A stretch of DNA of 64,000 bases, taken from IMG/VR virus record IMGVR_UViG_2565956624_000008. One strand, written 5' to 3'. Under the pieces are notes generated by a model that did no database searches, was not told where the DNA came from, and saw nothing but the letters and a program-made list of their open reading frames with translations. Position 1 is the first letter of the stretch, and every line of letters begins with the position of its first letter. Of the stretch, positions 6,891-7,690 are shown piece by piece. Made by a program: the position numbers and the translations under genes. Source of the stretch: a virus. Lineage: Duplodnaviria; Heunggongvirae; Uroviricota; Caudoviricetes.

Positions 6891-7690
6891 CAACAGGTAA
6901 GGGTATTTTGCGACGTCGGAGATCGCCGAGCTTGGCAGAGGGTTCGAATCCCTACGAAGTACCCTTACCGTTGTGATGAATGCGCAGGCTGATGCGCGAA
7001 AGACATTGCAGCTATTGCGGAAAAGAGCTGTTCGGCGGGGCAATTAAACGCCCGTGAGAGTCTGAAATAACCGCAAGCCGGAGATCAGCACCGGTCATCA
7101 CAACACAACAGGTAAGGGCATTCTCCCTTATGGGGCTTGGCTTAAATGCATCGAGTGCTCTTACCGTTGTGATGAAGTGCAGCTCTTTGAAGCAACCAGA
7201 AGATAAGCATCTGGCTTCACAACATAAACCGCAGGAACGACCAATAAACGGTAGTCCGTATGGAGAACACCCCGTTGAGGAAGAGGCCTGGCCGGAACCG
7301 TAACCGGCACTACAACGTTGAGAACACTGGCGTAACGGGGTCATATCCCAATCTACGAATAAATGTTGCGTTGCAGCGTGACAACCAGTGTTCTCAACAT
7401 TGTGGTGAATGCACAGGCTGATGTGCCGCAACTACAGTAGTGCGCGCTTTGCGGGGCTTGCTACAACCCTGTGTCGGAGTTCAGCACCGACCATCACAGT
7501 TTGATTCTCTGGCATGAGCATAACGCTGAAATAAGTCCAGCCTGGTGCGGCCCGATCACCCGCCGTTAGCTCCACGAAACGGAGCACGTAACAGGTAAGA
7601 GCATTCTCCTGTAACGGGTTCATATCCCAATCTACAGGTCCACCAAGAATGCTCTTTCCGTTGCGGTGAATGCGGCTAAGCGCACGCGGG
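6891..7690. repeat. four related imperfect hairpin repeat units (about 6891-6998, 7101-7190, 7317-7430, 7589-7690), each a long stem followed by a GTG(A/G)TGAA-tail; candidate structured ncRNAs or degenerate tRNA-like elements
   Basis: Shared ACAGGTAAG(G/A)G stems, shared GGGTCATATCCCAATCTAC core in units 3 and 4, T-arm-like GGTTCGAATCC in unit 1. Confidence 0.5.

What the first reader, a model, noticed from the sequence alone, without database searches (positions are those of the whole stretch)
6891..7690. Cluster of four degenerate hairpin repeat units downstream of tRNA-Asn/Thr
About 800 bp without convincing coding potential contains four units of 90-115 bp. Each is a long imperfect stem (ACAGGTAAGGG... 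pairing with ...CCCTTACCGTTG, or GTTGAGAACACTGG with CCAGTGTTCTCAAC) followed by a conserved GTGATGAA/GTGGTGAA tail. Units 3 and 4 share GGGTCATATCCCAATCTAC, and unit 1 contains a tRNA T-arm-like GGTTCGAATCC. Related motifs also occur upstream of tRNA-Asn (6449-6470, 6590-6615). These could be small structured RNAs, tRNA-derived pseudogenes or processing signals; I do not recognise the family.
Basis: seen in the sequence. Interest (0 to 1): 0.6.

Follow-up and report, generated by a model that had tools for sequence, protein, structure and literature searches.

The report
Modular structured-RNA array in P1 ban leader
The four "hairpin repeats" are real: each is a long RNA hairpin joined to a compact tRNA-shaped RNA module, and they belong to a large, mostly undescribed family of RNA building blocks that enterobacterial phages string together with tRNA genes; what they do has not been shown.

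Summary
The window is a P1-like phage. Bases 6891-7690 lie in the roughly 1.7 kb untranslated leader of the C1-repressed ban operon.

Each of the four units has two parts:
- LH, a long imperfect hairpin with a stem of about 19 bp and a variable tip.
It is the start of a three-way-junction module with a closing stem, two conserved hairpins with complementary loops, and a variable core.

A fifth LH lies upstream at 6447-6533.

Both module types recur in more than 120 viral contigs, including lambdoid, P22-like, 9NA-like and Ackermannviridae phages. Both show compensatory base changes and favour the + (transcribed) strand. Differences among P1 relatives are deletions between the repeats, and these break the minus-strand ORFs that P1 annotates as plp and upl.

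S4 is a sub-threshold match to the prophage sRNA family STnc100 and is homologous to the dicF-dicB spacer of Qin. The other modules match no Rfam family, and none is a tRNA gene.

My best reading is that the modules are cut out of the operon transcript into stable small RNAs whose variable inserts are the active parts. This is inferred, not shown. The main rival is a cis-acting anti-termination or anti-Rho role.

A tmRNA-tag-like module (ANDDLMMVAA) sits just upstream.

The parts
6049..6065 (+). C1 operator ATTGCTCTAATAAATTT inside the Pban promoter region, which is the start of the transcription unit holding the array
   Evidence: Read. The P1 annotation of Oban/P1ban/P2ban was mapped onto the window through the alignment.
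6176..6268 (+). DicF-like segment ending in an intrinsic terminator (stem 6242-6261 followed by a T run)
   Evidence: P1 misc_feature 'dicF-like region'. Terminator scan. Sequence similarity to the segment upstream of dicF in Qin, by eye.
6276..6446 (+). M module, which resembles the mRNA-like domain of tmRNA. The tag ORF is GCA...TAA at 6330-6362 (ANDDLMMVAA*), followed by pseudoknot-like hairpins.
   Evidence: Sub-threshold Rfam tmRNA_permuted and beta_tmRNA hits. All 127 copies in fetched loci encode a 10-residue tag. Flanks are conserved.
6447..6533 (+). LH0, a fifth long hairpin with no S module after it
   Evidence: Inverted repeat I2. Fold -47.3 kcal/mol, z -5.5.
6734..6887 (+). tRNA-Asn (6734-6809) and tRNA-Thr (6812-6887), embedded in the array
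   Evidence: ARAGORN and Rfam.
6889..6975 (+). LH1, a long hairpin starting 2 nt after the tRNA-Thr CCA end. Its tip carries a T-arm-like AGGGUUCGAAUCCCU.
   Evidence: (I6, D17).
6973..7101 (+). S1, a three-way-junction module: GUGAUG/CAUCAC closing stem, GCGCA-GGCUGA-UGCGC hairpin, variable core, GCCGG-AGAUCAGCA-CCGGU hairpin
   Evidence: Model R1, 71.3 bits. 96-98% identical copies in lambdoid phages and in E. coli chromosomes.
7104..7171 (+). LH2, long hairpin
7169..7220 (+). S2, a minimal S variant related to an element in the PL leader of P22-like phage SPN9CC and to one in phage PJ16
   Evidence: R1, 27.9 bits. blastn hits to P22-like phages. Alignment A1.
7291..7309 (+). Small hairpin GGCCGG-AACCGUAA-CCGGC just before LH3. 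The same element precedes long hairpins in other phages.
   Evidence: Read.
7308..7407 (+). LH3, a long hairpin with a different stem sequence (UUGAGAACACUGG/CCAGUGUUCUCAA). Its tip carries GGGGUCAUAUCCCAAUCUAC.
   Evidence: Inverted repeat I1. Fold z -6.9.
7402..7497 (+). S3, an S module with a G-U pair in its closing stem
   Evidence: R1, 63.2 bits. Fold.
7569..7585 (+). Small hairpin GCUCC-ACGAAAC-GGAGC just before LH4. It recurs before long hairpins in other phages.
   Evidence: Read.
7587..7665 (+). LH4, a long hairpin with the same tip motif as LH3 on a different stem
   Evidence: (I5, D5).
7663..7790 (+). S4, an STnc100-type S module followed by a T run (7785-7790). It is homologous to the dicF-dicB spacer of prophage Qin.
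   Evidence: Rfam STnc100, 37.8 bits against a gathering score of 47, E 3e-6. R1, 39.2 bits. R1 hit on Qin at L132 2958-3079.

Best explanation
The 800 bases are not genes for proteins or tRNAs. They are four tandem two-part RNA modules within the untranslated leader of the P1-type ban operon.

**When they are made.** When C1 repression is lifted, RNA polymerase starting at Pban (about 6050-6085) transcribes, on the + strand:
- a DicF-like RNA with a terminator,
- a tmRNA-tag-like module,
- a first long hairpin (LH0),
- tRNA-Asn and tRNA-Thr,
- LH1-S1, LH2-S2, LH3-S3 and LH4-S4,
- and then the downstream genes, the third tRNA and ban.

**Anatomy.** Each LH is a hairpin of about 19 bp with conserved irregularities and a variable tip of 25-60 nt. 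Each S is a compact junction laid out like a tRNA:
- a 6-bp 'acceptor-like' closing stem,
- a 3-nt linker,
- a first hairpin in the D-arm position,
- a variable insert in the anticodon-arm position,
- a last hairpin stacked on the closing stem like a T-arm.

The loops of the two conserved hairpins are complementary (GCUGA/UCAGC).

**Proposed mechanism (inferred).** The host RNA-maturation enzymes that release the neighbouring tRNAs also dissect this transcript. RNase III-type cleavage would act in the long LH stems. RNase P and RNase E would act at the tRNA-like S junctions. This would release stable small RNAs. Their variable parts, the LH tips and S cores, would be the functional cargo. They would act in trans on host or phage RNAs or proteins, as the related Hfq-bound prophage sRNAs STnc100 and PasD do.

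**Evolution.** The units behave as exchangeable cassettes. Relatives gain and lose them by recombination between the repeated arms.

**Shown:** the structures, the strand, the family, the cassette behaviour and the operon context. **Inferred:** the processing, the stability of the products and any trans action.
For: **Structure.**
- Fold z-scores are -4.5 to -6.9.
- For LH, 17 of 19 stem pairs show changes on both sides across 42 homologues. 75% of cells are paired, against 38-52% when the partner strand is slid. No shuffle reaches the observed values.
- For S, 95% of cells are paired against 25-52% when slid, and all 5 pairs of the last hairpin covary.
- One S has loops GGUCGA and UCGAC in place of GGCUGA and UCAGC, which keeps the loop-loop pairing.

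**RNA on the + strand.**
- LH is more stable than its reverse complement in 53 of 56 cases, p = 3e-10.
- All LH and S copies in the window are on the + strand.
- S is co-oriented with about 70-76% of neighbouring ORFs.

**Operon context.**
- The C1 operator and Pban lie upstream, from the P1 annotation.
- No promoter-like site is found in 5900-9300.

**A family rather than local decay.**
- More than 120 IMG/VR contigs carry S.
- 60 of 88 distinct copies have an LH ending at the S start.
- A further 113 S copies occur in 100 loci fetched through an unrelated motif.
- Carriers include lambdoid phages, P22-like phages, Uetakevirus, Nonanavirus and Ackermannviridae.

**Cassette behaviour.** P1 lacks 6981-7153, P7 and Ro157c2 lack 6908-7100, and SJ46 lacks 7357-7610. 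Each deletion has its end points in repeated arms or tips.

**Interleaving with tRNAs.** LH1 starts 2 nt after tRNA-Thr. Other contigs have tRNAs directly before LH or after S.

**Link to known sRNAs.**
- S4 scores 37.8 bits against STnc100.
- STnc100 and PasD are prophage sRNAs. PasD was found by Hfq RIL-seq and confirmed by northern blot, and PasA is matured from a longer transcript (bioRxiv 10.64898/2026.05.13.724894).

**Not coding.**
- The minus-strand ORFs have no Pfam match.
- The cassette deletions break them.
- RefSeq annotates nothing here in E. coli plasmids carrying the region.
Against: - No transcript ends, cleavage sites or stable products were available to me. The two P1vir RNA-seq papers I could read give only gene-level counts, although 'upl' reads do imply that the region is transcribed.
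- Only 25 of 83 S copies are followed within 120 nt by a terminator-like site, about the same as on the opposite strand (21). Most S modules are therefore not free-standing sRNA genes with an Hfq-type 3' end.
- S1-S3 do not hit STnc100 even at E<=10, and S4 is below the gathering score. The link to known sRNAs therefore rests on shared architecture (model R1) and not on curated membership.
- A strong terminator at 6242-6268 lies between Pban and the array, so expression needs read-through.
- Heavy structure in a long untranslated leader could be selected simply to keep Rho off, with no function for the pieces themselves.
Confidence: 0.42

Rival explanations
1. The units are cis-acting elongation-control elements. 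They would carry RNA polymerase through about 1.7 kb of untranslated RNA and its terminators to reach the downstream genes and ban. They could do this by recruiting host Nus factors through the boxA-like GCUCUU(U/A)CC in the 3' arm of LH plus the hairpin 11-12 nt downstream (a nut-like layout). Alternatively they could act as put-like RNAs that stay bound to the polymerase.
For: - The commonest LH 3' arm reads UGCUCUUUCC or UGCUCUUACC and is followed by GUUGUGGUGAAU and the hairpin GCGCA-GGCUGA-UGCGC.
- P22 nutL, as annotated, reads CGCUCUUUAAC-UUCGAUGAU-GCGCUGACAAAGCGC. Aligning the two consensus sequences gives p of about 0.001 against shuffles.
- In P22-like SPN9CC, an S-like element sits between PL and the N-like gene.
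- In several lambdoid contigs, S starts a few bases after a PL-type promoter and is followed by a DicF-like terminator (L002, L104, L116).
- S also occurs ahead of holin genes, in the late leader.
- By analogy, from established knowledge, long untranslated arrays such as rRNA operons and CRISPR arrays use boxA and Nus factors to resist Rho.
Against: - The boxA-like run is buried in a stem of about 19 bp. Its partner strand is made first, so it is unlikely to be free to bind NusB/NusE.
- Other LH stem families lack the run.
- Equal or better local alignments to P22 nutL occur at unrelated places in the window, scoring 30-33 against 24-28 for the units.
- S copies without an LH have no boxA upstream.
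- Model R1 does not hit P22 nutL or the HK022 put region, and HK022 putL has no sequence resemblance.
- No N-like protein is known in P1, 9NA-like or Ackermannviridae phages, all of which carry the modules.
- In the window, the strong terminator at 6242-6268 lies upstream of every unit.
- Whole units are dispensable in P1, P7 and SJ46.
Confidence: 0.2
2. The units are decayed tRNA genes or deliberate tRNA mimics. Candidate roles would be decoys for host tRNA-targeting defences or for tRNA-processing and tRNA-modifying enzymes, with the long stems acting as over-extended acceptor stems.
For: - A T-loop-like motif occurs in 9 of 56 distinct LH tips against 0.06 expected. It usually sits on the 3' side, stacked on the long stem as a T-arm stacks on an acceptor stem.
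- LH1 has AGGGUUCGAAUCCCU.
- S has a cloverleaf-like order of helices.
- Rare S variants have a true T-arm, or a true T-arm plus a D-arm-like hairpin (for L225, last row).
- In one contig a tRNA-like sequence replaces LH directly before S (L126).
- The units are interleaved with genuine tRNAs.
Against: - Neither ARAGORN nor Rfam RF00005 at E<=10 gives a tRNA hit on any LH or S in the window. ARAGORN also calls nothing on the tRNA-like variants.
- There is no anticodon arm and no CCA or discriminator pattern after the closing stem.
- Most LH tips (47 of 56) have no T-loop.
- Strong purifying selection on the stems and conserved module ends across distant phages argues against simple decay.
Confidence: 0.15
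3. The repeats work at the DNA level. They would be recombination hot spots or cassette boundaries, or hairpins in single-stranded DNA, that let phages swap tRNA and small-RNA cassettes. The RNA folds would be a by-product.
For: - Differences among P1-family phages are exactly repeat-to-repeat deletions.
- The short direct repeat CACAAC flanks LH+S units.
- Identical S1 cores occur in unrelated phage backbones.
Against: - A DNA hairpin would be equally stable on both strands. LH is systematically better on the + strand because of G-U pairs, in 53 of 56 cases.
- Compensatory changes include G-U intermediates.
- The conserved loop-loop complementarity in S has no DNA-level rationale.
- No recombinase is consistently adjacent, and downstream genes are diverse.
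Confidence: 0.06
4. The region encodes the minus-strand proteins Plp (a putative lipoprotein) and Upl, as annotated in the P1 reference genome.
For: - The P1 records AF234172/AF234173, RCS47 and JL22 annotate plp and/or upl here.
- The window has minus-strand ORFs at 7012-7431, 6858-7043 and 7432-7761.
- 'upl' is reported as expressed in one RNA-seq study.
Against: - The ORFs have no Pfam match.
- plp overlaps tRNA-Thr in P1.
- The ORFs change length and sequence with each cassette deletion in P1, P7, D6 and SJ46.
- P7, D6 and the RefSeq PGAP annotations call no gene here.
- The DNA is fully accounted for by RNA modules conserved in phages where these reading frames do not exist.
Confidence: 0.03

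Closest known systems
STnc100 (Rfam RF02076) and the related PasD prophage sRNAs
   Same: - S4 aligns to the STnc100 model over GGUGAAU + hairpin ... CACCGGGAGGCACCCGGCACC.
- One covariance model (R1) captures S1-S4, the Qin spacer and other STnc100-type copies.
- All are prophage or phage encoded and often lie near tRNAs, TerB-like genes and lysis genes.
   Different: - S4 is below the gathering score (37.8 against 47), and S1-S3 give no hit at all.
- The canonical S hairpin loops (GGCUGA and AGAUCAGCA) differ from the STnc100 type.
- The modules here are internal parts of an operon leader, in tandem, each preceded by a long hairpin. They are not free-standing genes.
dicF-dicB region of cryptic prophage Qin (E. 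coli K-12)
   Same: The order is the same: a pre-dicF segment, DicF with its terminator, and an S module before the next gene. R1 scores 41.9 bits on L132 2958-3079. From established knowledge, DicF is matured from the operon transcript by RNase E and RNase III (Faubladier et al. 1990).
   Different: Qin has a single S and no long hairpins, tRNAs or tmRNA-like module. No function has been assigned to the Qin spacer.
Stable small RNAs encoded inside phage tRNA clusters (T4 species 1 and 2 RNAs; phi80 M3 RNA)
   Same: These are non-tRNA structured RNAs co-transcribed with phage tRNAs and released by the host tRNA-processing enzymes. This comes from my own knowledge and was not tested here.
   Different: No sequence relationship was examined. 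The T4 RNAs are single genes and do not form a modular family shared across many phage groups.
RNase III processing hairpins (T7 early-mRNA sites; rRNA operon stems; lambda N leader)
   Same: Irregular stems of about 20 bp with conserved internal mismatches, lying between functional RNAs of a polycistronic phage transcript.
   Different: Cleavage is untested. The LH tips carry conserved motifs of their own, which simple processing sites do not need.
Lambdoid nut sites (boxA + boxB), as annotated in P22
   Same: A GCUCUUU run, a spacer of about 10 nt ending in GAUGAU or GGUGAAU, then a GCGC-stem hairpin. SPN9CC has an S-like element in the PL leader.
   Different: - The boxA-like run is base-paired.
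- The resemblance is no better than background matches in the window.
- There is no N protein.
- Model R1 does not hit P22 nutL.
tmRNA (relevant to the neighbouring M module only)
   Same: The resume-codon context AUAAAUGCAAACGA and a 10-codon tag ending in AA or VA match the beta and permuted tmRNA models locally. A pseudoknot follows the tag.
   Different: No tRNA-like acceptor domain was found. ARAGORN finds no tmRNA, and none of 121 copies has a downstream complement to its 5' flank.

Membership tests
tRNA gene or pseudogene | Cloverleaf detectable by ARAGORN or Rfam RF00005 | tested here: not met
   No tRNA call in 6888-7800 by ARAGORN or by cmscan at E<=10.
tRNA gene or pseudogene | T-arm (5-bp stem with a GUUCRANYC loop) stacked on an acceptor-type stem | tested here: inconclusive
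   Present in LH1 and in 9 of 56 LH homologues against 0.06 expected. Absent from LH2-LH4.
STnc100 (RF02076) | Score at or above the Rfam gathering threshold of 47 bits | tested here: not met
   S4 scores 37.8 bits, E 3.3e-6, over model positions 31-147 of 206. S1-S3 give no hit. Six further loci have none at the gathering score.
STnc100/PasD-like sRNA | Discrete Hfq-associated transcript with its own terminator | tested here: inconclusive
   Only S4 is followed by a T run, and the consensus terminator scan does not flag it. Family-wide, 25 of 83 S copies have a terminator-like site within 120 nt. Hfq binding cannot be tested with these tools.
Lambdoid nut site | Single-stranded boxA (YGCUCUUUA-like) 5' of a boxB hairpin | tested here: not met
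   A boxA-like run is present but lies inside the LH stem. Similarity to P22 nutL is not above the window background.
Lambdoid nut site | A cognate N-type antiterminator protein, and a second site in the other early operon | not tested
   No N-like gene is known in P1, from my own knowledge. I did not search the window for one.
HK022 put antiterminator RNA | Sequence and structure similarity to putL/putR | tested here: not met
   putL was located in HK022 with the primers published in PMC9378689 and shows no resemblance. R1 finds nothing significant in the HK022 immunity region.
RNase III processing hairpin | Roughly two helical turns of imperfect double-stranded RNA between functional RNAs | tested here: met
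   Median outer helix is 19 bp in 60 homologues. Positions between tRNA and S modules are shown.
RNase III processing hairpin | Cleavage by RNase III in vivo or in vitro | not testable with these tools
   Needs end mapping in an rnc mutant.
tmRNA (M module, 6276-6446) | Tag reading frame with a resume codon and a C-terminal degradation signal | tested here: met
   ANDDLMMVAA*. All 127 copies encode 10 codons ending in AA, VA or, once, AP.
tmRNA (M module, 6276-6446) | Alanine-accepting tRNA-like domain (acceptor stem with G3-U70, T-arm, CCA) | tested here: not met
   ARAGORN finds no tmRNA. No acceptor closure in 0 of 121 copies.
Type III toxin-antitoxin RNA repeats (ToxI-like) | Near-identical short tandem repeats next to a toxin gene | tested here: not met
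   The units are 150-280 nt apart and share only their arms. No toxin-like gene is adjacent.
Large ornate phage RNAs (GOLLD, ROOL, HEARO) | Match to the Rfam models | tested here: not met
   No hit at E<=10 in 6050-7850.
Protein-coding plp/upl | Reading frame conserved among relatives, or a recognisable domain | tested here: not met
   Frames are broken by the cassette deletions. No Pfam match. Not called by PGAP.

The most novel reading that the evidence does not exclude
The LH and S units, the tmRNA-tag module and the embedded tRNAs may together form one phage-borne system of translation-machinery mimics. It would combine tRNA-shaped scaffolds (S), extended-acceptor minihelices (LH with T-arms) and a stand-alone tmRNA-like message (M, tag ANDDLMMVAA). 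Phage groups as different as P1, lambdoid phages, 9NA-like phages and Ackermannviridae would deploy it early in infection. Its role would be to hijack or blunt host trans-translation, tRNA processing or tRNA-targeting defences. In some phages it would act as a single large RNA of about 700 nt running from promoter to terminator.
Probability: 0.12. Interest if true: 0.9.

Novelty: new variant of a known kind. Interest (0 to 1): 0.62.

Why it matters
P1 is one of the best-studied phages, yet about 1.7 kb of its ban operon leader is still annotated as two doubtful ORFs or as nothing.

This region turns out to be built from conserved RNA modules:
- They are present in about a quarter of complete E. 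coli genomes: 1332 of 5426 carry at least one piece.
- They are shared with lambdoid, P22-like, 9NA-like and even virulent Ackermannviridae phages.

That defines a broad superfamily of phage RNA elements, of which the orphan sRNAs STnc100 and PasD may be special cases. It also gives concrete objects to test: stem and loop mutants, processing in RNase mutants, and Hfq or ProQ binding.

If the modules are trans-acting, phages carry swappable libraries of small RNAs next to their tRNAs. If they are cis-acting, they are a new way to protect long non-coding phage transcripts from termination.

The adjacent tmRNA-tag-like module raises the separate question of whether phages tamper with ribosome rescue.

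Tried and rejected
- **Rfam.** I scanned at gathering thresholds and at E<=10. Only tRNAs passed. The hits to miRNA families are generic long-hairpin matches, and the YrlA hit spans the two real tRNAs, so I discarded all of these.
- **HK022 put.** I located putL with published primers. There is no similarity, and R1 finds nothing there.
- **nut-site idea.** P22 nutL and nutR were fetched. The alignment looks suggestive, but window-wide scanning gives equal or better chance matches, so I kept it only as a weak rival.
- **Stem-only model for LH.** A covariance model built from the LH stems alone (R2) could not tolerate the long variable tips and missed the real hairpins. I used direct folding and motif search instead.
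- **Free-standing sRNA genes.** I tested whether S modules are free-standing sRNA genes. Terminator-like sites follow only 30% of them and are no more frequent than on the opposite strand.
- **Acceptor stem for the tmRNA-like module.** None of 121 copies has a downstream complement to its 5' flank, and ARAGORN is negative.
- **Literature.** No paper in the held library contains the module sequences. Nothing turned up on the ban operon leader. The P1vir RNA-seq papers give only gene-level data. No report of a tmRNA-like element in enterobacterial phages was found. The library is incomplete, so this is not proof of novelty.
- **Consistent protein partner.** The ORFs downstream of S are diverse, including TerB-like proteins, first genes of the PL operon and holins.
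Full report
**Where the region is.** The window is a P1-like phage-plasmid. Bases 6250-7800 are 99.8% identical to Escherichia phage vB_EcoM-813R1 and about 99% identical to P1 isolates. By alignment to the annotated P1 genome, the finding lies downstream of the C1-controlled ban promoters. The operator ATTGCTCTAATAAATTT is at window 6049-6065. The region is upstream of the third tRNA (8888-8963) and of ban (9244-10614). The stretch from about 6085 to 7815 has no convincing ORF on the transcribed strand. 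The consensus scan finds no internal promoter-like site, and it finds one strong intrinsic terminator at 6242-6268. P1 records annotate two minus-strand ORFs here, plp and upl.

**Checking the observation.** The four hairpins fold far better than shuffled controls, with z between -4.5 and -6.9 and none of 200 shuffles as good. The whole 913-nt stretch has z -7.5 on the + strand and -4.3 on the minus strand. The 5' arm motif occurs four times in 64 kb against 0.03 expected, always on the + strand. A fifth hairpin of the same kind, LH0 at 6447-6533, precedes the tRNAs.

**The units have two parts.** The 'GTGATGAA tail' pairs with a TCATCAC about 50-130 nt downstream (I20 and I21). Comparison with other phages defined a second module, S. 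Its parts in order are:
- a closing stem, GUGGUG/CACCAC;
- the linker AAU;
- the hairpin GCGCA-GGCUGA-UGCGC;
- a core of very variable length and sequence;
- the hairpin GCCGG-AGAUCAGCA-CCGGC, which abuts the closing stem.

Whole S modules are 62 to about 210 nt long. On an alignment of 29 diverse copies, 95% of cells pair, against 25-52% when the partner is slid. Eight pairs show changes on both sides, and every pair of the last hairpin covaries.

The two conserved loops are complementary (GCUGA/UCAGC). Natural variation keeps this pairing through wobble pairs. In one copy it is kept through a double swap to GUCGA/UCGAC. A covariance model of S (R1) hits the 64-kb window only four times: 6973-7101, 7169-7220, 7402-7497 and 7663-7781. 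All four are on the + strand, and each begins at the 3' end of LH1-LH4. The layout is a 6-bp terminal stem, a short linker, a first hairpin, a variable middle, and a last hairpin stacked on the terminal stem. That is the order of helices in a tRNA. This resemblance is an inference from anatomy, because tRNA detectors do not recognise S.

**The long hairpins as a family.** Of 88 distinct sequences upstream of S modules in viral contigs, 60 have an outer helix of at least 12 bp that ends at the S start. The median is 19 bp, with a tip of about 45 nt. At least ten unrelated stem sequences occur, for example GGUAAGAGCAUUG, UUGAGAACACUGG, CAUGAGAGCGCUCC, UCAAAGAGCG and CUGUAACGACGCUUC. All keep the pairing and the CACAAC/GUUGUG base. 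On a fixed-register alignment of 42 arms, 17 of 19 pairs show changes on both sides, and no shuffle reaches the observed values. The hairpins are more stable than their reverse complements in 53 of 56 cases (p = 3e-10), because they contain G-U pairs. That asymmetry points to RNA made in the direction of the operon and argues against a DNA hairpin.

The tips are variable but not random. A T-loop-like motif occurs in 9 of 56 against 0.06 expected. The GGGKYCAUAWCCCAAUC motif of LH3 and LH4 also sits on other, different stems in phage mEp460 and in IMG/VR contigs.

**Distribution and context.**
- It occurs in lambdoid phages just downstream of cI and PL (mEp460 and Stx2 phages).
- It occurs in the PL leader of a P22-like phage.
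- It occurs in a Uetakevirus, a Nonanavirus and Klebsiella Ackermannviridae.
- Genes downstream of S include TerB-like proteins, the first gene of PL operons and holins. These are the leaders of early and late operons, where lambdoid phages also keep tRNAs.
- S is co-oriented with about 70-76% of neighbouring ORFs.
- Pieces of 6891-7690 occur in 1332 of 5426 complete E. coli genomes. S1 alone accounts for most of the 912 chromosomal places. The full array is in 200 genomes, and RefSeq annotates nothing there.

**Cassette behaviour.** Within the P1 family the array differs by whole modules:
- P1 lacks 6981-7153, which is S1 plus the 5' part of LH2.
- P7 and Ro157c2YLVW lack 6908-7100, which is LH1 and S1.
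- SJ46 additionally lacks 7357-7610, a deletion between the shared tips of LH3 and LH4.
- D6 and P7 carry a tRNA-Ser and a different S core, and Ro157c2YLVW has an extra tRNA-Tyr.

Every junction lies in a repeated arm or tip, so the changes look like homologous recombination between repeats. The same deletions alter or remove the plp and upl frames. Those frames have no Pfam match, and plp overlaps tRNA-Thr in P1. I conclude that they are not genes.

**Relation to known RNAs.** S4 gives a sub-threshold hit to STnc100: 37.8 bits, gathering score 47, E 3e-6. It is homologous to the spacer between dicF and dicB in prophage Qin. STnc100 is a prophage sRNA of unknown function. A 2026 preprint relates it structurally to PasD, an abundant sRNA found by Hfq RIL-seq and confirmed by northern blot. 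The same preprint notes that PasA is cut from a longer transcript and that PasA and PasC lie near TerB genes. S1-S3 and all LH match no Rfam family.

**Mechanism.** The following are shown: conserved RNA structures on the transcribed strand, inside a repressor-controlled operon leader, interleaved with tRNAs, modular and exchangeable.

The reading I favour (confidence about 0.4) is that the leader is a precursor dissected by host RNases. The double-stranded LH stems of about 19 bp are the right size and irregularity for RNase III. The tRNA-shaped S bodies and the neighbouring tRNAs would be released by RNase P and RNase E. The released stable pieces would carry variable 'cargo' that acts in trans, by analogy with STnc100, PasD and DicF.

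Three observations weigh against it:
- I have no end-mapping data.
- Most S copies lack their own terminator.
- The link to known sRNAs rests on architecture and not on curated membership.

The main rival (about 0.2) is a cis-acting role in keeping RNA polymerase going through a long untranslated leader. The commonest LH 3' arm contains a boxA-like GCUCUUU run, followed by a spacer and a GCGC hairpin, much as in P22 nutL. Some S modules sit exactly where nutL or putL would be. However, the boxA-like run is base-paired. The resemblance is not above background, there is no similarity to put, and whole units are dispensable.

The remaining readings score lower, for the reasons given under the rival explanations:
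- tRNA decay or mimicry, about 0.15;
- a purely DNA-level role, about 0.06;
- coding for Plp and Upl, about 0.03.

**Seen in passing.** Immediately upstream, at 6276-6446, lies a module whose core, AUAAAUGCAAACGAUGAU...UAA, matches the mRNA-like domain of beta and permuted tmRNAs. It encodes ANDDLMMVAA; the E. coli tag is ANDENYALAA.
- All 127 copies in fetched loci encode exactly ten residues with conservative variation (ANDDVVLMAA, ANEEMYLAVA, ANDEQFLAVA and others).
- A pseudoknot follows the tag, and its pairing covaries (CCGA/UCGG, CCAG/CUGG, GUCG/CGAC).
- A long hairpin follows the module in every case inspected, and often precedes it too.
- In 9NA-like phage PJ16 the modules M, LH, LH and S lie between a promoter-like sequence and a terminator-like hairpin, both read by eye, as one unit of about 700 nt.
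- I found no tRNA-like acceptor domain, so how such a message could be used is unexplained.

**Verdict.** This is a real feature. It is a newly delineated, widespread family of modular phage RNA elements whose nearest described relatives are orphan prophage sRNAs. Its function is open.

Noticed in passing
window 6276-6446 (tag ORF 6330-6362, + strand): A module resembling the mRNA-like domain of tmRNA, encoding ANDDLMMVAA*. There are sub-threshold Rfam tmRNA_permuted and beta_tmRNA hits. All 127 copies in fetched phage loci encode 10-residue tags ending in AA, VA or, once, AP. A covarying pseudoknot follows the tag. No tRNA-like acceptor domain was found.
   Followed up: partly
window 6120-6268: A segment homologous to the region upstream of dicF in prophage Qin, followed by a DicF-like hairpin and a strong intrinsic terminator (6242-6268). 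P1 annotates it as 'dicF-like region'. The terminator lies between Pban and everything downstream, so tRNA and ban expression needs read-through.
   Followed up: partly
window 6447-6533: A fifth long hairpin (LH0) of the same family, directly after the tmRNA-like module and with no S module behind it.
   Followed up: yes
window 6712-6733: The hairpin GCCGG-AGACGUAC-CCGGC followed by AAGU lies directly 5' of tRNA-Asn and resembles the last hairpin of S modules. The tRNA-Asn acceptor stem (GAUGGUG) also resembles the S closing stem (GUGGUG or GUGAUG).
   Followed up: no
window 7291-7309 and 7569-7585: Two small conserved hairpins, GGCCGG-AACCGUAA-CCGGC and GCUCC-ACGAAAC-GGAGC, lie immediately before LH3 and LH4. 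The same hairpins precede long hairpins in unrelated phage contigs, so even the 'spacers' are made of shared modules.
   Followed up: partly
L008 470-3108 (Klebsiella phage T765, Ackermannviridae): An unannotated stretch of about 2.6 kb in a virulent 157-kb phage contains the tmRNA-like module, a long hairpin, a canonical S module and several tRNA-like pieces that ARAGORN does not call.
   Followed up: partly
L009 1080-1800 (Escherichia phage PJ16, Nonanavirus): A promoter-like sequence, then the tmRNA-like module, two long hairpins, a minimal S module, another long hairpin and a terminator-like hairpin. Promoter and terminator were read by eye. It looks like one self-contained non-coding RNA gene of about 700 nt between structural genes.
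   Followed up: partly
L002 2640-2700 (mEp460), L007 1775-1835 (BUCT554), and several IMG/VR loci: DicF-like terminator hairpins (UUUGGCGG...CCGCC followed by a U run) often follow S modules. One scores 22 bits against Rfam DicF.
   Followed up: no
window 7012-7431, 6858-7043 and 7432-7761 (minus strand): These are the ORFs corresponding to P1 plp and upl. They have no Pfam match, they are broken by the cassette deletions in relatives, and RefSeq does not call them. They are probably annotation artefacts in the P1 reference.
   Followed up: yes
window 7816-8860: Downstream of the array this phage carries a 78-residue ORF and a Band_7/SPFH protein, where P1 has tciA, tciB and tciC (TerB-like). 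The cargo after the RNA array is therefore also variable.
   Followed up: partly
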